Assembly (NCBI RefSeq): GCF_003018115.1
Contig: NZ_CP027457.1
Source: Escherichia coli
Lineage (GTDB): Bacteria; Pseudomonadota; Gammaproteobacteria; Enterobacterales; Enterobacteriaceae
DNA length: 64,000 nucleotides
Strand: one strand, 5' to 3'
Both the position numbers and the translations under genes were made by a program. Positions 15,423-49,291 of the stretch are shown here, one piece after another (position 1 is the first letter of the stretch; each line of letters starts with the position of its first letter). The notes under the pieces were generated by a model that had not been told where the DNA came from, searched no databases, and saw only the letters and a program-made list of their open reading frames with translations.

Positions 15423-15494
15423 GCTCATTTCAGAATATTTGCCAGAACCGTTATGATGTCGGCGCAAAAACATTATCCAGAACGGGAGTGCGCC

Positions 15495-31602: not shown

Positions 31603-32367
31603 ATGCGTTCGATTGCCCGACGTACCGCAGTGGGAGCTGCACTATTGCTTGTTATGCCAGTAGCCGTATGGATTTCTGGCTGGCGTTGGCAACCTGGAGA
31701 ACAAAGTTGGCTACTAAAAGCGGCTTTTTGGGTTACTGAAACTGTCACCCAGCCCTGGGGCGTCATTACACATTTGATTTTATTCGGCTGGTTTCTCTGG
31801 TGTCTGCGTTTTCGCATTAAGGCTGCCTTTGTATTATTTGCCATTCTGGCGGCGGCAATCCTTGTGGGACAAGGCGTTAAATCCTGGATCAAAGACAAAG
31901 TCCAGGAACCAAGACCTTTTGTTATCTGGCTGGAAAAAACACATCATATTCCGGTTGATGAGTTCTACACTTTAAAGCGAGCAGAACGCGGAAATCTAGT
32001 GAAAGAACAGTTGGCTGAAGAGAAAAATATTCCACAATATTTGCGTTCACACTGGCAGAAAGAGACGGGGTTTGCCTTTCCTTCCGGTCACACGATGTTT
32101 GCTGCCAGTTGGGCACTGCTGGCCGTTGGTTTGCTGTGGCCGCGTCGGCGAACGTTAACCATTGCTATCTTGTTGGTCTGGGCAACGGGAGTCATGGGAA
32201 GCCGCCTGCTGCTCGGGATGCATTGGCCACGCGATCTGGTGGTAGCTACGTTGATTTCGTGGGCGCTGGTGGCGGTGGCAACGTGGCTTACGCAACGAAT
32301 TTGTGGGCCATTAACACCGCCTGCGGAAGAAAATCGCGAAATAGCGCAACGAGAACAAGAAAGTTAA
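31603..32367 (+). CDS. pgpB: Phosphatidylglycerophosphatase B
   Basis: 254 aa; PAP2 motifs (SGHT, lipid-phosphatase signature). Confidence 0.9.
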   Translation: MRSIARRTAVGAALLLVMPVAVWISGWRWQPGEQSWLLKAAFWVTETVTQPWGVITHLILFGWFLWCLRFRIKAAFVLFAILAAAILVGQGVKSWIKDKVQEPRPFVIWLEKTHHIPVDEFYTLKRAERGNLVKEQLAEEKNIPQYLRSHWQKETGFAFPSGHTMFAASWALLAVGLLWPRRRTLTIAILLVWATGVMGSRLLLGMHWPRDLVVATLISWALVAVATWLTQRICGPLTPPAEENREIAQREQES

Positions 32368-32515
32368 CGCTGGTTGATTTTCCGAATTTAGCCCTTAAAT
32401 CATCAACAATGCGCGTGGATGCCATTTCGCAGACGGCGCGAAGATGGTACTTTAAAGGGCTATTGCGGTAAGTTGACCATAATTTATTCGCTCTAACCAC
32501 ATAACGGGAAGTAAT

Positions 32516-32824
32516 GTGAAATATTTACTCATTTTCTTACTGGTGTTAGCGATCTTCGTGATTTCGGTCACGTTGGGTGCGCAGAACGATCAACAGGTGA
32601 CGTTTAATTATCTGTTAGCGCAAGGGGAGTACCGTATTTCCACATTGCTGGCGGTATTGTTTGCTGCGGGTTTTGCTATCGGTTGGTTGATTTGTGGCCT
32701 GTTCTGGCTGCGAGTTCGTGTTTCCCTGGCGCGCGCTGAACGTAAAATAAAGCGACTGGAAAACCAGCTTTCACCCGCGACTGACGTGGCTGTAGCGCCG
32801 CACTCGTCAGTGGCGAAGGAATAA
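32516..32824 (+). CDS. lapA: LPS assembly protein LapA (YciS)
   Basis: 102 aa, two hydrophobic helices, immediately upstream of lapB. Confidence 0.85.
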   Translation: MKYLLIFLLVLAIFVISVTLGAQNDQQVTFNYLLAQGEYRISTLLAVLFAAGFAIGWLICGLFWLRVRVSLARAERKIKRLENQLSPATDVAVAPHSSVAKE

Positions 32825-32830
32825 CTTTCT

Positions 32831-34000
32831 ATGCTGGAGTTGTTGTTTCTGCTTTTGCCTGTAGCCGCTGCCTATGGCTGGTATATGGGCCGCAGAAGTG
32901 CGCAACAAAACAAGCAAGATGAAGCCAACCGCTTGTCGCGTGATTACGTAGCGGGGGTTAACTTCCTGCTTAGTAATCAACAGGATAAAGCGGTAGACCT
33001 GTTTCTCGATATGCTTAAAGAGGATACAGGCACCGTTGAAGCCCACCTTACGCTCGGAAACCTGTTCCGTTCGCGTGGCGAAGTTGATCGCGCTATTCGC
33101 ATCCATCAGACCCTAATGGAAAGCGCCTCGCTGACCTATGAACAGCGTCTGTTGGCGATTCAACAACTGGGGCGTGATTACATGGCCGCTGGGTTATACG
33201 ACCGCGCGGAAGACATGTTCAATCAGCTGACCGATGAAACTGACTTCCGCATTGGTGCGCTGCAACAGTTGCTACAAATCTACCAGGCTACCAGCGAGTG
33301 GCAGAAAGCAATTGATGTTGCCGAACGCCTGGTGAAGCTGGGTAAAGATAAACAGCGCGTCGAAATTGCCCATTTCTACTGTGAGTTAGCCCTGCAGCAT
33401 ATGGCCAGCGACGATCTCGATCGTGCCATGACCTTGCTAAAAAAAGGGGCGGCGGCAGATAAAAACAGCGCCCGCGTATCCATCATGATGGGACGCGTGT
33501 TTATGGCGAAAGGAGAATACGCCAAAGCCGTCGAAAGTTTGCAACGCGTGATATCCCAGGACAGAGAACTGGTCAGCGAAACGCTGGAAATGTTGCAAAC
33601 CTGCTATCAGCAGTTGGGTAAAACTGCCGAATGGGCAGAATTCCTGCAGCGCGCGGTGGAAGAGAACACCGGCGCCGATGCTGAATTGATGCTTGCGGAT
33701 ATCATCGAAGCGCGCGACGGTAGTGAGGCTGCACAGGTCTATATTACGCGCCAGCTTCAGCGTCATCCGACCATGCGTGTGTTCCATAAGTTAATGGATT
33801 ACCACTTAAATGAAGCGGAAGAAGGGCGTGCCAAAGAGAGCCTGATGGTGCTGCGTGACATGGTTGGCGAAAAGGTACGTAGTAAGCCTCGTTATCGCTG
33901 CCAGAAATGTGGTTTTACCGCATACACCCTCTACTGGCATTGTCCGTCTTGTCGGGCCTGGTCAACCATTAAACCGATTCGCGGTCTTGATGGCCTGTAA
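32831..34000 (+). CDS. lapB: LPS assembly protein LapB (YciM), TPR and rubredoxin-like
   Basis: 389 aa; C-terminal CQKCG...CPSC zinc-ribbon. Confidence 0.9.
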   Translation: MLELLFLLLPVAAAYGWYMGRRSAQQNKQDEANRLSRDYVAGVNFLLSNQQDKAVDLFLDMLKEDTGTVEAHLTLGNLFRSRGEVDRAIRIHQTLMESASLTYEQRLLAIQQLGRDYMAAGLYDRAEDMFNQLTDETDFRIGALQQLLQIYQATSEWQKAIDVAERLVKLGKDKQRVEIAHFYCELALQHMASDDLDRAMTLLKKGAAADKNSARVSIMMGRVFMAKGEYAKAVESLQRVISQDRELVSETLEMLQTCYQQLGKTAEWAEFLQRAVEENTGADAELMLADIIEARDGSEAAQVYITRQLQRHPTMRVFHKLMDYHLNEAEEGRAKESLMVLRDMVGEKVRSKPRYRCQKCGFTAYTLYWHCPSCRAWSTIKPIRGLDGL

Positions 34001-41251: not shown

Positions 41252-42379
41252 TTAATATGTCTCACCCAACGCGATTTTTAAGCGATTTATCCAGCCACAC
41301 AGCCCGCTCCATACCAGCAGATTAATAATCTGCGTTGATGATTTTTCGTGTTCGAGTAAAGGGCTGAACTGGGCGGCGCTAAAGCGATCGGGTGCTCGGG
41401 TCAGCCATTGTATCGCCTGAACGGTAGCGTGCTCAACAGAATGACGGTCAGCCCATTGGTTAATTTCATTTTCGCCCTTGCGCACAAGGGCGCTGATTTT
41501 TTTATATTCATTTGATGAATCCATACAGGCGGCAAAACAAGCAGGACTGCCATTTATCCGCGCGCATAACAACGCCGCAAGCTTATTATCCGGCTGTGTA
41601 TTAACCCGTGTACTGTTTAACAACCTTTCGAGAAGGGAAAGTGAAATAGGGTGGAGAGAGAGTGTTTCGGCCAGTTGGCAAAGTTCTGCAGTTGAACTTT
41701 TTGTGTACTCTTCAGGTAGTTTTTCCACCTCATAGCTGCTTCGCCAGCGTATTGATTCATCAGCAAACAGTGACGCGTCGGCGTAGTTTTGTATTTCCAG
41801 ACCGGGTAACCAGCGTACCGGGTGCCCGAGATAAGCCTGAAATGTCGCAATGGTCCGCGCCTGAAAGCCAATAAAACCAATGATTTGGTTAATGATCACA
41901 CAGTCCCAGGCAGTAAGACCGACGTCATTCAGATGCTGGCGCGATCGGTTGTCGATAATAGAAGGCGAGCTAGCCAGTTGGCGGGCATATTGCGTGATTT
42001 GTGCCAACCTATGATTGCTTTCCCTGGAGGAATCAGGCCCGGGGAGCGGCGTAAGTCGCGCCGAATAGTAGTTACATAACCGCTGGACGCCGCAAACCTG
42101 AGCAACCGTCAGGGCCGTAGACAAGCGTTCATAAGCGGTGAAGGTCTGTGAACGGGTCACGGTAAGCTGGTCAGGGAACAATTCCACTGCAAGAACGCGC
42201 GCAGGGACCAGCCATGAAAGGAAGGGAGCCAGCGTTTCTTCATCAAGGATCACGTCGAGCAGAAAGGGATCGCTGACCTTTGCGGCTTCCGGGACCAGAG
42301 GCAGAACGTCATACTCCGCAGTACTGGATTGCGTTTCATGATACCAGTGGCTTTTGCCGGTGATGTGGCGTTGTTCCAT
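41252..42379 (-). CDS. yciW: Putative peroxidase-related protein YciW (AhpD-like)
   Basis: 375 aa from [16 protein letters not shown]... Confidence 0.8.
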
Positions 42380-42523
42380 GGGCGCTCCTTGGTCGTAAAG
42401 GAAATCGTTATCCTGACGCAAGGCGGGAAGGGGAGAAAGACGGATCGGCGATAACAAATATCAGAAAGGTATAACAGAGATAACGGGCGGCAGAACGCCG
42501 CCCAATATTTACCAACAGAATGA

Positions 42524-43312
42524 TTATTTCAATTCGAGTTCGTTCATTGCAGCGATGCTGAAACCGCCGTCAACGTGGACCACTTCACCGGAGATACCGG
42601 CAGAGAGATCGGAGCACAGGAATGCCGCAGAGTTACCCACATCTTCAATAGTAACGGTACGGCGAATCGGGGTAACGGCTTCGCAATGAGCCAGCATTTT
42701 GCGGAAGTCTTTGATACCGGAGGCCGCCAGAGTACGGATCGGACCAGCAGAGATGGCGTTAACACGCACACCTTCCGGACCCATCGCGTTCGCCATATAG
42801 CGCACGTTCGCTTCCAGAGACGCTTTTGCCAGACCCATAACGTTGTAGTTCGGGATAGCGCGCTCAGCGCCAAGGTAGGAAAGGGTCAGCAGGGCAGAAC
42901 CCGGATTCAGCATGGAGCGGCAAGCTTTTGCCATTGCAACGAAGCTGTAGGAGCTGATGTCGTGGGCAATTTTGAAGCCTTCACGGGTAACGGCGTTAAC
43001 ATAGTCACCATCCAGCTGATCGCCAGGTGCAAAACCAATAGAGTGTACGAAACCGTCAAATTTCGGCCAGACTTTACCCAGTTCAGCGAACATGGTGTCG
43101 ATGCTGGCATCTTCTGCAACATCGCACTGCAGAACGATGTCAGAACCCAATTGAGCGGCAAATTCTTCTACGCGGCCTTTCAGTTTGTCGTTCTGGTAGG
43201 TGAATGCCAGTTCAGCTCCTTCGCGGTGCATCGCCTGAGCGATACCGTAGGCGATGGACAGTTTGCTGGCAACACCGGTTACCAGAATGCGCTTACCGGA
43301 AAGAAAACCCAT
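42524..43312 (-). CDS. fabI: Enoyl-ACP reductase (NADH)
   Basis: 262 aa, [28 protein letters not shown]... Confidence 0.95.
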
Positions 43313-44009: not shown

Positions 44010-44816
44010 TTAGCGATCTTTACGCCATGCATCCGCCGTCAATGCCTCGCCAAAATGACCGGCAATCAGCCGTTTGGTGAGTTCATGCAGCGGCGATGCC
44101 AGCACATCCGCGGTGCTGCCTCGCTCGACAACCTCGCCCTGATGCATCACCAGCACCTGGTCGCTAATGTGCTTCATCATTCCGATATGCTGGGTAACAT
44201 AAATATACGAAATGCCCTGTTTTTCCTGTAATTCCAGCATCAGATTAATCAACTGCGAACGCATCGACATATCCAGTGAAGCGAGGGCTTCATCGGCAAT
44301 AATGACTTTTGGGCGCAATATCAGCGCGCGCGCCAGACCCAGACGCTGTTTTTGCCCGGGGGCCAACATATGCGGATAGTAACTGACGTGATCCGGTAGC
44401 AGCCCAACCATACGCATCGTTTCAATAATCTGTTTGCGACGCTGTTCCGGTTCCAGGTTGGTGTTCAGGCGCAGTGGAAAATCCAGGATTTGCGAGATAC
44501 GTTGACGGGGATTCAACGAGGTCGAAGGATCCTGAAAAATCATGCGAATACGCTGACTGCGGAAGGAATAATCGCCAAAATGCAGTGGATGATCGTCAAT
44601 CAATAACTCGCCGCTGGTAGGTTCTATCATTCCCGCCAGCATTTTTGCCAGCGTGGATTTACCCGAACCATTCTCGCCAATAATCGCCAGTGTCTGGCCT
44701 TCACGTAGCGTAAAGCTCAAGGGTTTTACCGCTTCTACGGTCTGGCGACGAAACCAACCGGTCCGGTAGCGGAACGTTTTACTTAAATTACGCACTTCAA
44801 GCAGCGTTTCGATCAT
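44010..44816 (-). CDS. sapF: Peptide ABC transporter ATPase SapF
   Basis: 268 aa; Walker A GENGSGKST. Confidence 0.9.
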   Translation of the reverse strand: MIETLLEVRNLSKTFRYRTGWFRRQTVEAVKPLSFTLREGQTLAIIGENGSGKSTLAKMLAGMIEPTSGELLIDDHPLHFGDYSFRSQRIRMIFQDPSTSLNPRQRISQILDFPLRLNTNLEPEQRRKQIIETMRMVGLLPDHVSYYPHMLAPGQKQRLGLARALILRPKVIIADEALASLDMSMRSQLINLMLELQEKQGISYIYVTQHIGMMKHISDQVLVMHQGEVVERGSTADVLASPLHELTKRLIAGHFGEALTADAWRKDR

Positions 44817-44817
44817 C

Positions 44818-45810
44818 TCACTCTTTCTCCATGTTCAGCGGGAAATGACAGGCATAGAGATGATTTTTCGCCCCCGTCAAACGTGGCGTCACAATGCATT
44901 CTCGTTGTGCATATGGGCAACGTGGCCCCAGACGACAACCAATCGGTAACTGTTCAAGCAGTGGGATAGCGCCGGGTAGCGTATTGAGGCGACTTTTATG
45001 CGGCATCGCGCTGCCGAAGTCTGGTATCGCGCGGATCAGCGCCTGGGTATAAGGATGATGTGGCATCGTCACCAACTCCTTACTCGGCGCGGTTTCCACC
45101 GTTTGACCGCAGTAAAGCACGTTAATTTTATCCGCCCATTGGCTAAGCATTTGTAAGTCATGGCTGATAAGCAAAATAGTGGTATTGCTGTTTTGGTTGA
45201 GACGCGTCAGCAGGCGAAAGATTTGCGCCTGGGTTGTTGGCTCCATTGAGTTTGTCGGTTCGTCAGCAATCAGCAGACGCGGTTGATTCGCCAGTGCAAT
45301 GGCTATCATCACTTTCTGACATTCACCTTCGGTCAACTCATAGGGAAAACTGCGCATCGCATCTTTGTGATCTTTAATCCCCACGCGGTGCAGCAGTTCA
45401 ATGGCACGCCGTTTGCGCCAGCCAAAACGCTGCCACCAACGGCCTTTATAGGTCCAGGCTGGGATGTTTTGCATCAACTGGCGACCCACACGTTCTGAAG
45501 GATCTAGACACGACTGCGGTTCCTGGAAAATCATCGACACGTTGTGGCCAACCAGTTTGCGCCGTTCGCGTGCGGAGAGACGCAGCAAATCGATATCATC
45601 AAAACGCATACGGTCAGCAGTAACACGCCAGTTATCTTTATTCACCCCACAAATCGCTTTCGCAATCAAACTCTTGCCGGAACCGGATTCACCAACAAGA
45701 CCGCGGATTTCACCTTCGGTTAAGGTCATACTTACCCGGTCGACGGCTTTAACCCACTCATCCCCGGTTTTAAATTCAATAGTCAGGTTACGAATATCGA
45801 GTAATGGCAT
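44818..45810 (-). CDS. sapD: Peptide ABC transporter ATPase SapD
   Basis: 330 aa; Walker A GESGSGKS. Confidence 0.9.
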
Positions 45811-46700
45811 TATTCCACCCCCGCAATAATTGCACGACGGACACCGTCGCCAAGGAGGTTAACCAACAACACGCTAATCATAATTGCCGCACCTGGCAGC
45901 ATGACAGTCCACGGGGCGACATAAATCAGTTCCAGCGCATCACCGAGCATCGCTCCCCATTCAGGCGAGGGGAGTTGTGCGCCGAGATCGAGAAAGCCCA
46001 GCGCGGCGATATCGAGAATTGCCATCGACAGTGCGCGGGTGATCTCGGTGACCAGCCCGGCGGTGATGTTTGGCATCACAGCAAACCAGAGAATATTCAG
46101 CGTTGATGCGCCATCCAGACGGGCGGCGATAACGTACTCTTTTTCCAGTTCGTCATGCACCATGCTGTAAATCGAACGTACCATACGCGGCAGCAATGCC
46201 AGCCAGACAGCAAACATAGCGTGGGACAAACTCGGTCCGGCAAACGCTACAACGATAATGGCCAACAGCAGCGAAGGGATCGCCAGTAAGGTATCCAGAA
46301 TATGGTTAAGCACCGCTGAGCGGAGGCCGTGTGTCGCCCCGGCGAAGGTGCCCAGTACCAGGCCACAGATCGTCGCGGCAAGCGTCACCACAAATGCGCC
46401 ACCCACGGTTGGCGCAGCTCCGCTCAGTAAACGGCTTAAAACATCGCGTCCGAGGTCGTCAGTCCCCAGGAAGAAAGAAACTTCGCCATAGCGCGACCAT
46501 GACGGCGGCAATAATTGATAACCGAGAAATTGCTGGTCGATGCCGTAAGGCGCAAACCAGCCGCCAAAAATACACAGTACAGCCAGCCCCGCGCAGCCGT
46601 ACAGGCCGACCATCGCAGAGGCGTCACTATAAAATTTGCGCCAGGCGGTACGCAGCGTGCCCGGCGGGCGCTTTTCGCTGTATACGCTATCGTAAGGCAT
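45810..46700 (-). CDS. sapC: Peptide ABC transporter permease SapC
   Basis: 296 aa polytopic membrane protein. Confidence 0.9.
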
Positions 46701-47652
46701 ACCATTCCTTATGTTTCAGAGGGTTAGCCATGGCACCCAAAATATCAGAAATCACGTTAACAATAATGACCAGTGAGCCACACACCATCACTCCGGCGGA
46801 AATGGCTGCGTAATCCTGCTGGCGGATGGCGTTAATTAACCAGCGCCCTAAACCCGGCCAGCTAAAAACCATTTCGGTGATCATCGCCAGCGTCAGCATG
46901 GTGGAAAACTGTAAGCCCAGGCGAGGAATAACCGGCGGTAACGCGTTATGCAGAACGTGGCGACGCAAAATAGTAAAGCGCGACAAACCGCGGGTCGCCG
47001 CCGCTTTTACATAGTTCTGGTCATACACTTCGATAGTGCTGATACGCATCAGGCGGATCACTTCAGTTGTTGGCGCAACCGACAGGGTGATCACGGGCAA
47101 TATCATATGGCGGATTGCGCTCATGATCATTTCATCCCGCCATGGTGAGTCCGAAAGCCAGGCATCAATCAACGCAAAACCGGTAATCGGTTTCACTTCG
47201 TAGAGCAGATCGAAACGCCCTGAAACGGGCAACCAACCTAGCGTGAGTGAACAAAACAGCGTCAACAGAAGCGCCAGCCAGAACACCGGGATTGAAAAGC
47301 CCAGTAAGGCGATGGCGTTGATCAAGTTATCCTGCCACTTATGGCGCGTAATCCCGGCAATCATCCCCACGGGGATGCCAACAATCAGCGCAAAACCGAA
47401 GGCGAGGATGCACAGTTCCATCGTCGCCGGGAAGACCTCTTTTAACTGTTCGGCAATTGGTTGACCGTTAATGCTGGAAACACCAAAATCCCAGTGGATC
47501 AGGCCATTAAACCAGAACACCCAGGCATTCCACAGTGACGCGCCTTGTAACGGCGCGTGTGGAGTGAAATAGCTCAAACTGAAGCCAACGAAGGTCAGCA
47601 GGAACAAGGTAACAATCAATAACAAAATGCGGCGTAAGGTGAAGATAATCAT
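46687..47652 (-). CDS. sapB: Peptide ABC transporter permease SapB
   Basis: 321 aa polytopic membrane protein. Confidence 0.9.
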
Positions 47653-49291
47653 GGCTTTTTCACCTCATCCTGTTTCTCGCGATACACCCCAGCAAAGGAG
47701 GCGTTACCAAACGGGCTAAGTACCAGACCTTTGATATCGTACCGATAGGCCTGCAAACGCAATGACGACGCCAGCGGCAAAATGGGCAATTCCTGCGCCA
47801 GAATACTCTGCGCTTCGTCATAGGCTTCAATACGCGCTGCCAGCTGCTGCGAGGAGAGCGCCTTACGCAACACGCTGTCGAATTTCGGATCGCACCAGTG
47901 GGCGAGGTTGGTCTGTGAATGAATTGCCGCGCAGCTCAGTAAAGGACGGAAGAAACTGTCCGGGTCGTTACTGTCCGTCGCCCAACCGGATAACGTCAGA
48001 TCATGGCTCATATCCATCAACCGCGCCTCCTGAAAGCGACCTTCTACCGGCACAATCACCACTTTTACGCCAACCTGCGCCATATCCGCCTGAATCAGTT
48101 CGGCAGTTTTCAGTGGACTGGGGTTCCACGCCTGCGAACGTGTGGGCACCCACAGTTTCAGCGTTAAATTTTCCAGCCCCAACGACTTCAACTGTTCGCG
48201 CGATTTCGCCGGATCGTATTCAGTAATTTTAGCCTCGTTGTCATAGGCCCACGAGGCGCGCGGTAAAATAGAGGCCGCCGTTTCAGCCGTACCATAATAG
48301 ATGGATTGCATCAGGCGCTGGTTATTAATCGCCAGTGCCAGCGCATGGCGGACAGCGGGATTATTTAGCGGCGGTTTGGCGGTGTTAAATGCCAGATAGG
48401 CGACGTTCATCCCGGGACGCAGCGTTAAACGCAAGCGCGGGTCGTCACGCAAAATGGATAGCTGGCTGGCAGCAGGCCAGGCCAGAACGTCGCATTCACC
48501 AGTCAGGAGTTTCGACAGACGTCCGGTGCCGCCGGAGCCTAAATCCACCACCACCTGCGGCATTAACGGTTTACCGCGCCAGAAGTCATCATGACGTTGT
48601 AGGCGAATAAATTGCCCGGCGCGGTATTCCGACAATTGATACGGACCGGTGCCGACCGGTTGACGGTCGAGTTGCTCCTGGCGATCTTCTTTCTCTAACT
48701 TCCGGGCATATTCTGCCGACATGACCGAAGCATAATGGGTTGCGAGGTGCCACAAAAAAGAAGCATCCGGCTGGGCGAGTCGGAACTCAACGGTATGATT
48801 ATCCAGTTTACGGACGCTTTTCACGTTATCGGCAAATTGCAGACTGTCGAAGTAGGGGAAGTTGCTGCCGTTGACGTTATGCCACGGGTTGTTGCGGTCA
48901 AAAATTCGCTGGAAGGTAAACACCACATCGTCGGCATTCATTTTACGAGTGGGAGTAAACCAGTCGGTTTTTTGAAACGGAACATCGCGACGCAGGTGGA
49001 AGCGATAGGTCGCGCCGTTGTCGAGTACTTCCCAGCTTTCGGCAAGTTCCGGCATCAGGCGATAGGTATAGGGATCGACATCCAGCAGTCGATCATAAAA
49101 CTGGGCGGCAAGGGTATCGACAATTAACCCACTGCTCGCTTTGGATGGGTTAAAGGTGTTGACTTGCCCGCTGACGCAATAGACAAAACCGCTGTCGCGG
49201 ATATCAGCATGCGGGGGGATTCAGGCGCGGCGATTGCCTGACCACTCACAAGTCCAGCAATCACCAAAAGAGACGATAATACCTGGCGCAT
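47649..49291 (-). pseudogene. sapA: sapA (periplasmic peptide-binding protein) with a -1 frameshift in a poly-C tract near the 5' end
   Basis: ATG at 49291 gives signal peptide MRQVLSSLLVIAGLVSGQAIAAPES, then the frame terminates shortly after; the SapA body (..DIRDSGFVYCVSGQVNTFNP.. to the stop at 47649) is in the -1 frame; the frames meet at C6 (plus G6, 49213-49218); start-to-stop span is 1643 nt, not a multiple of 3. Confidence 0.7.

What the first reader, a model, noticed from the sequence alone, without database searches (positions are those of the whole stretch)
49205..49225. sapA inactivated by a -1 frameshift in a C-run while sapBCDF remain intact
The sapA start and signal peptide (ATG at 49291) are in one frame and the whole mature SapA body is in the adjacent frame; they meet at a C6 tract (plus-strand G6, 49213-49218). 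From my recollection of SapA (..APESPPHADIRDSGF..) the intact gene would have C7 there. The start-to-stop distance is 1643 nt, one short of a multiple of three. This leaves the ABC transporter without its periplasmic binding protein. It is either a genuine pseudogene or a homopolymer-length sequencing or assembly error.
Basis: partly seen in the sequence, partly recalled or inferred. Interest (0 to 1): 0.55.

Follow-up and report, generated by a model that had tools for sequence, protein, structure and literature searches.

The report
One-base sapA frameshift, probably assembly error
The E. coli gene sapA is broken here by one missing C in a run of seven, but the same call in public data tracks assembly type, so it is most likely a sequencing artefact and would be a mild, ordinary gene loss even if real.

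Summary
sapA (minus strand, ATG 49291) has a C6 tract at 49218-49213 where 99.8% of complete E. coli genomes have C7. The reading frame breaks after residue 26 and stops at 49126-49124. The gene span is 1643 nt. sapBCDF are intact, and sapA is the only broken gene of 59 chromosomal genes compared.

C6 appears private to this assembly. The five closest complete genomes have C7. None of 15 contigs from near-identical kin assemblies carries the truncated SapA product, although this is indirect evidence.

Across public assemblies with the same SapA allele, the truncated call depends on assembly type:
- 1-5% in contigs under 20 kb
- 0.012% in 50-200 kb contigs
- 0 of 4,701 in 0.2-1 Mb contigs
- 0.31% in contigs over 1 Mb

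Seven of the ten RefSeq genomes with C6 have accession numbers from 2018 or earlier, and some have further frameshifts next door.

The best reading (about 0.8) is that a long-read consensus under-called the longest G/C homopolymer in the chromosomal part of the window. The alternative (about 0.18) is a fresh slipped-strand null mutation. Its effect would be small, because SapBCDF exports putrescine without SapA. Low interest; a known kind of event.

The parts
47649..49291 (-). sapA locus as it stands in the window: 1643 nt, frame broken
   Evidence: The relatives' intact sapA is 1644 nt. After restoring one C, the protein matches the NCBIfam SapA equivalog NF011689 at 1162.7 bits over residues 1-547.
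49213..49218 (-). C6 tract (G6 on the plus strand) at sapA codons 25-27; it is C7 in 99.8% of complete E. coli genomes
49124..49291 (-). Start-frame ORF of 55 aa plus TAA: signal peptide, then APESP, then 29 out-of-frame residues
   Evidence: This exact 55-aa sequence is not in the 15-billion-protein collection.
47649..49055 (-). Body-frame ORF of 468 aa starting at SapA Met80. It has no signal peptide and no Shine-Dalgarno-like sequence upstream, and begins 68 nt after the premature stop
   Evidence: It matches SapA profile positions 80-547 at 1020 bits.
47649..47652 (-). ATGA overlap of the sapA stop codon and the sapB start codon (site of translational coupling)
46687..47652 (-). sapB, intact
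   Evidence: no amino-acid differences from WP_000583277.1 of F6326-C1.
45810..46700 (-). sapC, intact
44818..45810 (-). sapD, intact
44010..44816 (-). sapF, intact

Best explanation
The missing C is most likely not in the organism's DNA. It is probably a homopolymer-length under-call in the consensus of a long-read, chromosome-scale assembly. It falls on what would be the longest G/C mononucleotide run in the chromosomal part of the window.

Shown: the tract is C6 here and C7 almost everywhere else. C6 is absent from the nearest relatives. In public data the C6 call tracks assembly type and quality rather than phylogeny.

Inferred: the window comes from a long-read assembly. The evidence is that a 5,001,754-bp contig is the recorded longest contig both for the truncated SapA product and for the window's rare YciE allele. 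It is also inferred that this particular C6 is one of those technical calls.
For: 1. Private to this assembly.
- All five closest complete genomes (99.9% identity, O169:H41 ETEC clade) have C7. The window's sapA-sapB allele otherwise has no substitutions against theirs over 2.7 kb.
- Fifteen contigs share the window's rare YciE allele. The seven compared with the window differ from it by 0-1 SNP over 10.7 kb of chromosome and share its rare A5 marker; all seven also end in the prophage next to ompW.
- By their lengths these contigs must span sapA. None appears among the contigs carrying the truncated 468-aa product.

2. Dependence on assembly type, for the same SapA allele, as truncated versus intact index blocks:
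- 2-5 kb contigs: 5.1%
- 5-10 kb: 2.2%
- 10-20 kb: 1.1%
- 20-50 kb: 0.18%
- 50-200 kb: 0.012%
- 0.2-1 Mb: 0 of 4,701
- over 1 Mb: 0.31%
Fisher tests: over 1 Mb versus 50 kb-1 Mb, p = 0.006; under 20 kb versus 50 kb-1 Mb, p = 7e-43.

3. Era. Seven of ten C6 RefSeq genomes have accession numbers from 2018 or earlier, against 10 of 59 in an evenly spread sample of C7 genomes (binomial p = 3e-4).

4. Error-prone company.
- 2013C-4830 also has puuA frameshifted, and MRY15-131 has ymjE frameshifted, each within 2.5 kb.
- The NCTC assembly with C6 has a split puuC.
- Three of nine Logan C6 contigs have further homopolymer deletions within 7.4 kb.

5. C6 sits on at least 8 sapA-sapB haplotypes in RefSeq genomes plus the window, and on many more in Logan. 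It therefore recurs independently of ancestry.

6. Deletions in homopolymers are the dominant residual error of long-read assemblies (PMC12007338).
Against: - No reads are available, so the call itself cannot be checked.
- The assembly is otherwise clean. There is no other private indel in 57 kb. All 13 A/T 7-runs, 3 A/T 8-runs and 6 other G/C 6-runs agree with relatives.
- The one other rare homopolymer difference (A5 at 15466-15470) proved to be a true inherited marker shared by the kin assemblies compared.
- A C7 run is also a real hotspot for replication slippage.
- Several Logan contigs have C6 as their only indel in 7.4 kb, so genuine C6 variants may exist.
- The kin's sapA sequence was not read directly. 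Absence of C6 there is inferred from the gene-product index.
- The counts in the key classes are small (1 and 2).
- Equating accession era and contig length with sequencing technology rests on my general knowledge, not on a tool result.
Confidence: 0.8

Rival explanations
1. This is a genuine, very recent loss-of-function mutation. Slipped-strand mispairing during replication contracted the C7 tract to C6 in this isolate only. The product would be a 55-aa peptide and no periplasmic SapA. SapBCDF function would be largely unaffected.
For: - C7 would be the longest G/C run in the chromosomal part of the window, and so the likeliest slippage site.
- The assembly is otherwise accurate, and its other rare homopolymer state is real.
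- There are no secondary mutations in sapA, which fits a fresh event.
- Loss of sapA should be tolerated. 'SapBCDF, but not SapA' exports putrescine, and a sapA deletion gives only a 2-fold rise in negamycin MIC (PMC8097410). sapA is reported to have its own promoter (PMC9629497).
- Some otherwise clean public contigs carry C6.
Against: - C6 is absent from the five nearest complete genomes and apparently from all 15 kin contigs.
- In contigs typical of good short-read drafts the truncated form is seen once in about 13,270 index blocks, against 0.2-0.3% in chromosome-scale assemblies. A C6 seen in a contig over 1 Mb is therefore roughly 15-35 times more likely to be technical than real.
Confidence: 0.18
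2. The tract is a regulated switch. Either it is a phase-variable contingency locus toggling SapA on and off, or it is a recoding site where -1 ribosomal slippage or transcriptional slippage on the C-run restores full-length SapA from the C6 template.
For: - A -1 slip of the P-site tRNA-Pro on CCC would recreate exactly ..SPPHAD.. (read directly from the sequence).
- C6 recurs on many haplotypes, and a C9 variant exists.
Against: - 99.8% of complete genomes are in frame with C7, so no out-of-frame arrangement is conserved.
- The tract is short for a contingency locus.
- Close kin do not show both states.
- C6 frequency follows assembly quality, not lineage or host.
- There is no X XXY YYZ heptamer in register. 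No downstream stimulatory structure was looked for.
Confidence: 0.02

Closest known systems
Homopolymer deletion errors in long-read (PacBio CLR / Nanopore) bacterial assemblies, which produce spurious 'frameshifted' pseudogenes
   Same: A single-base deletion inside a G/C homopolymer. It is private to one chromosome-scale assembly. The same call is enriched in early long-read-era and fragmented assemblies, and in some of them it is accompanied by other homopolymer frameshifts (PMC12007338).
   Different: The window shows no other such error in 57 kb. The sequencing platform of the source is not known.
The sapA 'frameshifted' pseudogene annotated by PGAP in ten RefSeq complete E. coli genomes (N3, 2013C-4830, CREC-544, MRY15-131, KSC64, O177:H21, SaT040, RM8082, CUVET16-321, CAVp367)
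   Same: The identical lesion: C6 at the same tract, the same 1643-nt span, and sapB intact.
   Different: The sapA-sapB haplotypes differ, with 17-69 substitutions from the window's allele over 2.7 kb. None of them is the window's strain.
Slipped-strand frameshift pseudogenes at mononucleotide runs in enterobacteria
   Same: If the lesion is real, it is exactly this: a 1-nt contraction of a run, giving a premature stop and a null allele.
   Different: Natural pseudogenes are normally shared by clonal relatives and soon collect further lesions. Here neither holds.
[quoted passage not shown]
   Same: The same operon and the same protein family (NF011689).
   Different: In E. coli the sapBCDF knockout did not alter LL-37 resistance. 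SapBCDF acts as a putrescine exporter without SapA (PMC9629497, PMC8097410). Losing SapA is therefore not expected to disable the known functions.

Membership tests
SapA, ABC transporter substrate-binding protein (NCBIfam NF011689 equivalog; Pfam SBP_bac_5) | Full-length match to the family profile above the curated cut-off | tested here: met
   The intact allele of relative F9792, identical to the window's apart from the one missing C, scores 1162.7 bits over 1-547 (cut-off 560). The window's 468-aa ORF scores 1020 bits on profile positions 80-547.
SapA, ABC transporter substrate-binding protein (NCBIfam NF011689 equivalog; Pfam SBP_bac_5) | One uninterrupted ORF encoding the signal peptide plus the mature domain | tested here: not met
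   The frame breaks after residue 26. The signal peptide and the body are in different frames.
sapABCDF operon | sapA followed by intact sapB, sapC, sapD and sapF in conserved order next to the ymjA-puu cluster | tested here: met
   The gene order matches the annotated relatives, and SapB, C, D and F have no amino-acid differences.
Long-read homopolymer consensus artefact | A single-base length change inside a homopolymer, absent from close relatives | tested here: met
   C6 versus C7. The five nearest complete genomes have C7. Kin contigs lack the truncated product (indirect).
Long-read homopolymer consensus artefact | Frequency of the call depends on platform or assembly quality rather than on phylogeny | tested here: met
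   The frequency is U-shaped across contig-length classes. There is an enrichment by accession era. The call occurs on many unrelated haplotypes.
Long-read homopolymer consensus artefact | Raw reads or orthogonal sequencing of the same isolate show the true length (C7) | not testable with these tools
   No reads are available, and the source assembly could not be retrieved.
Genuine frameshift pseudogene | The lesion is inherited by clonal relatives or confirmed by independent sequencing | tested here: not met
   C6 is not shared by the relatives. The kin contigs are not among the carriers of the truncated product.
Phase-variable contingency locus | A long simple repeat with both on and off lengths common within lineages | tested here: not met
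   C7 in 5,412 of 5,422 matching records (5,421 genomes) and C6 in 10. Both states are not seen among close kin.
Programmed ribosomal frameshift or transcriptional slippage gene | The out-of-frame arrangement is conserved across homologues | tested here: not met
   99.8% of genomes encode SapA in a single frame.

The most novel reading that the evidence does not exclude
The C7 tract could be a genuine, recurrently hit mutational weak point, and SapA-null variants with intact SapBCDF could arise and be favoured in some niches, for example by reducing uptake of peptide-like antibiotics, since a sapA deletion doubles the negamycin MIC. The window's strain would then be a natural sapA null. That would support a SapA-independent role for SapBCDF and a separate role for SapA with other permeases.
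Probability: 0.04. Interest if true: 0.35.

Novelty: already known. Interest (0 to 1): 0.07.

Why it matters
It matters mainly as a caution. This one tract produces a 'frameshifted sapA pseudogene' annotation in about 0.2-0.3% of chromosome-scale E. coli assemblies, but almost never in good short-read drafts. Pseudogene surveys or gene-loss inferences that include sapA would be misled by it.

If the lesion were real, it would be a mild natural knockout of a binding protein whose function in E. coli is still unclear. The known SapBCDF activities (putrescine export, and SapD support of Trk potassium uptake) would be expected to persist.

Tried and rejected
1. I suspected an error-prone assembly because the window has a second very rare homopolymer contraction: A5 at 15466-15470, with A6 in 5,418 of 5,421 genomes. 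This was rejected, because all kin assemblies compared share A5, so it is a true lineage marker.
2. I tried the window's YciW allele to find kin. It turned out to be the common allele (9,532 blocks). The recombination patch belongs to the O169:H41 relatives, not to the window.
3. I tried to retrieve the source genome, probably a 5,001,754-bp contig, and the single 50-200 kb contig carrying the truncated product. Neither was shown by the look-ups.
4. The NCTC assembly UGAS01 is not the source; it is 99.3% identical.
5. L051 (GCA_014042135.1) looked like kin because its ycjM is intact. It differs at several SNPs and has C7.
6. I could not read sapA directly in the kin contigs, because no lineage-specific protein lies within 10 kb of sapA.
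7. I looked for the sigma-54 promoter predicted for sapBCDF inside sapA. No convincing match was found; the best was 5 of 11 consensus bases. The sigma-70 scan was no better than shuffled sequence.
8. The primary paper, Sugiyama 2016 (PMC5159496), is not held. Its claims are cited through PMC9629497 and PMC8097410.
9. A literature search found no report of a sapA C-tract frameshift in E. coli.

Full report
OBSERVATION

The window carries the E. coli sapABCDF operon on the minus strand, next to ymjA and the puu cluster.
- sapA starts at ATG 49291.
- The gene-strand sequence reads GCG CCT GAA TCC CCC CGC ATG, with six C's at 49218-49213.
- The start frame gives the signal peptide plus APESP (26 native residues), then 29 unrelated residues, then TAA at 49126-49124.
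- The rest of SapA lies in the adjacent frame. That frame is open from 49220, but its first start codon is the ATG at 49055, which is Met80. It begins 68 nt after the premature stop and has no Shine-Dalgarno-like sequence upstream.
- Start to stop is 1643 nt.
- The intact allele of a close relative is 1644 nt. It has C7 and encodes ..APESPPHADIRDSGF...
- That intact allele, identical to the window's apart from the one missing C, matches the NCBIfam SapA equivalog NF011689 at 1162.7 bits over its full length. The window's 468-aa ORF matches profile positions 80-547.
- SapB, C, D and F are identical in protein sequence to those of the relatives. sapA is the only broken gene of 59 chromosomal CDS compared.

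HOW UNUSUAL IS C6?

With an 80-bp probe, 10 of 5,421 complete RefSeq E. coli genomes match C6 exactly. The rest are C7, some with a nearby SNP. In all ten, PGAP annotates sapA as a 'frameshifted' pseudogene with sapB intact. Together with the window, the C6 carriers sit on at least eight different sapA-sapB haplotypes. Further C6 contigs from Logan, ENA and an NCTC assembly lie on many more haplotypes, and none of them matches a RefSeq C6 genome. C6 is thus rare and highly recurrent, and it does not follow ancestry.

WHERE THE WINDOW COMES FROM, AND WHETHER ITS RELATIVES SHARE C6

No complete RefSeq genome is identical to the window. The closest are five O169:H41-type ETEC genomes at 99.9% identity.

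Against F6326-C1, window 6809-63066 shows 39 SNPs and three single-base indels:
- 31 of the SNPs are clustered in a recombination patch at yciW.
- One indel lies in that patch.
- One is A5 versus A6 at 15466-15470, which is intergenic.
- One is the sapA tract.

All five relatives have C7. Apart from the missing base, the window's sapA-sapB sequence has no substitutions against theirs over 2.7 kb.

The second homopolymer difference first looked suspicious, because only 3 of 5,421 genomes share A5. I then found that the window's YciE allele is rare (8 contigs in the protein collection). Its recorded longest contig, 5,001,754 bp, is the same as for the truncated 468-aa SapA product. This points to a chromosome-scale source assembly.

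Fifteen contigs carry that YciE allele. They come from NCBI drafts (158-196 kb contigs) and Logan assemblies (69.6 kb contigs). The seven places shown were compared with the window:
- They end in the prophage that occupies window 1-6808.
- They differ from the window by 0-1 SNP over 10.7 kb of chromosome.
- They all have A5.

A5 is therefore a real lineage marker, and the assembly is accurate at that site.

By their geometry these kin contigs must span sapA, which lies 42 kb from yciE. If they had C6 they would carry the exact 468-aa product and would head the look-up lists with full flanks. Only the unrelated NCTC contig does. The C6 therefore appears private to the window's assembly. This step is indirect, because I could not read the kin's sapA DNA.

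REAL MUTATION OR ARTEFACT?

The decisive evidence is at the population level. For the same SapA allele, the index lists the intact 547-aa product in 18,729 blocks and the truncated product in 72.

- 2-5 kb: 5.1%
- 5-10 kb: 2.2%
- 10-20 kb: 1.1%
- 20-50 kb: 0.18%
- 50-200 kb: 0.012%
- 0.2-1 Mb: 0 of 4,701
- over 1 Mb: 0.31%

Fisher tests give p = 0.006 for over 1 Mb against 50 kb-1 Mb, and p = 7e-43 for under 20 kb against 50 kb-1 Mb.

A true allele frequency should not depend on how contiguous an assembly is. Here the call nearly vanishes in contigs typical of good short-read drafts. It reappears in fragmented assemblies and in chromosome-scale assemblies, which I take to be long-read based.

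Other observations point the same way:
- Seven of the ten C6 RefSeq genomes have accession numbers from 2018 or earlier, against 10 of 59 in an evenly spread sample of C7 genomes (p = 3e-4).
- Two of the ten have another frameshifted gene within 2.5 kb.
- The NCTC assembly with C6 has a split puuC.
- Three of nine Logan C6 contigs show further homopolymer deletions within 7.4 kb.
- Deletions in homopolymers are the typical residual error of long-read assemblies (PMC12007338).
- The intact tract would be the longest G/C run in the chromosomal part of the window, which is where such errors concentrate.

Suppose the rate in 50 kb-1 Mb contigs is taken as the ceiling for real C6. Then a C6 seen in a chromosome-scale contig is about 15-35 times more likely to be technical than real.

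Several points hold my confidence down:
- The window is otherwise clean, with no other private indel in 57 kb.
- The counts in the key classes are small.
- The platform is inferred, not known.
- A C7 run is also a genuine slippage hotspot.
- Some otherwise clean contigs do carry C6.

I put the artefact at about 0.8 and a genuine, isolate-specific slippage mutation at about 0.18.

CONSEQUENCES IF THE LESION IS REAL

- The product would be a 55-aa secreted fragment. No periplasmic SapA would be made.
- The 468-aa ORF lacks a signal peptide and a ribosome-binding site.
- Translational coupling at the ATGA sapA/sapB overlap (47652-47649) would be lost. About 1.5 kb of untranslated RNA could cause some polarity; this is inference.
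- However, sapA is reported to have a promoter separate from sapBCDF in E. coli (PMC9629497, citing Sugiyama 2016). I could not confirm an internal promoter from the sequence.
- The functional effect should be small. 'SapBCDF, but not SapA' contributes to putrescine export. The sapBCDF knockout did not alter LL-37 resistance. SapA's role in E. coli is called unclear. A sapA deletion gives only a 2-fold rise in negamycin MIC (PMC8097410, PMC9629497).

REGULATED ALTERNATIVES

Phase variation and programmed frameshifting are disfavoured. 99.8% of genomes are in frame, close kin do not show both states, and the frequency follows assembly quality.

COMPARISON WITH WHAT IS KNOWN, AND VERDICT

The lesion is identical to the 'frameshifted' sapA already annotated in ten RefSeq genomes. 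It belongs to a well-known class: a homopolymer length change, which is either a long-read artefact or slipped-strand mutation. Nothing about it is new. Its practical value is as a warning that this tract generates spurious sapA pseudogene calls. Interest is low.

Noticed in passing
window 1-6933: This is the right end of a lambdoid prophage (gpJ tail tip, Lom, tail fibre, DUF4376, ORF6N). It is inserted in ompW and leaves a ~126-nt ompW 3' remnant at about 6809-6933. The prophage is absent from the five O169:H41-type relatives. It is present, at 98.7-99.8% identity, in the YciE-allele kin assemblies.
   Followed up: partly
window 15466-15470: An A5 run lies between the trp promoter and the rnm start codon. 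5,418 of 5,421 complete genomes have A6, yet all kin assemblies compared share A5. It is therefore a genuine rare lineage marker and not an error.
   Followed up: yes
window 41430-42532: There are 31 clustered SNPs and one indel against the O169:H41 relatives, in yciW and the yciW-fabI spacer. The window carries the common YciW allele (9,532 index blocks), so the recombination patch belongs to the relatives.
   Followed up: partly
window 63057-63066 (ycjM); L003 31103-34000, L004/L005 39414-49921: The closest complete relatives carry Tn10 (IS10, tetC, tet(B), tetR and cargo genes) inserted in ycjM. The window has an uninterrupted ycjM at that point.
   Followed up: partly
L004 and L005, about 31825-33432 (puuC): LR882990 and F8111-1SC3 have a 120-bp in-frame duplication in puuC (1608 nt against 1488 nt). 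The duplication is absent from the window and from F6326-C1.
   Followed up: no
window 5973-5979: This is the only G7 run in the window, and it lies in the prophage. The kin assemblies read G6T here, which is a difference at the boundary between a G-run and a T-run.
   Followed up: no
L007 (2013C-4830), L009 (MRY15-131), L027 (NCTC UGAS01000002.1): Other assemblies with C6 in sapA show further broken genes close by: puuA frameshifted, ymjE frameshifted, and puuC split into 37 + 429 aa. This suggests those assemblies are error-prone.
   Followed up: partly
L024 (SRR17885569), about 2800-2900; L017 (ERZ28636570), about 2820-2840: Other lengths of the same tract occur. One Logan contig has C9. 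One metagenome scaffold reads nine C's through a G-to-C substitution next to the run.
   Followed up: no
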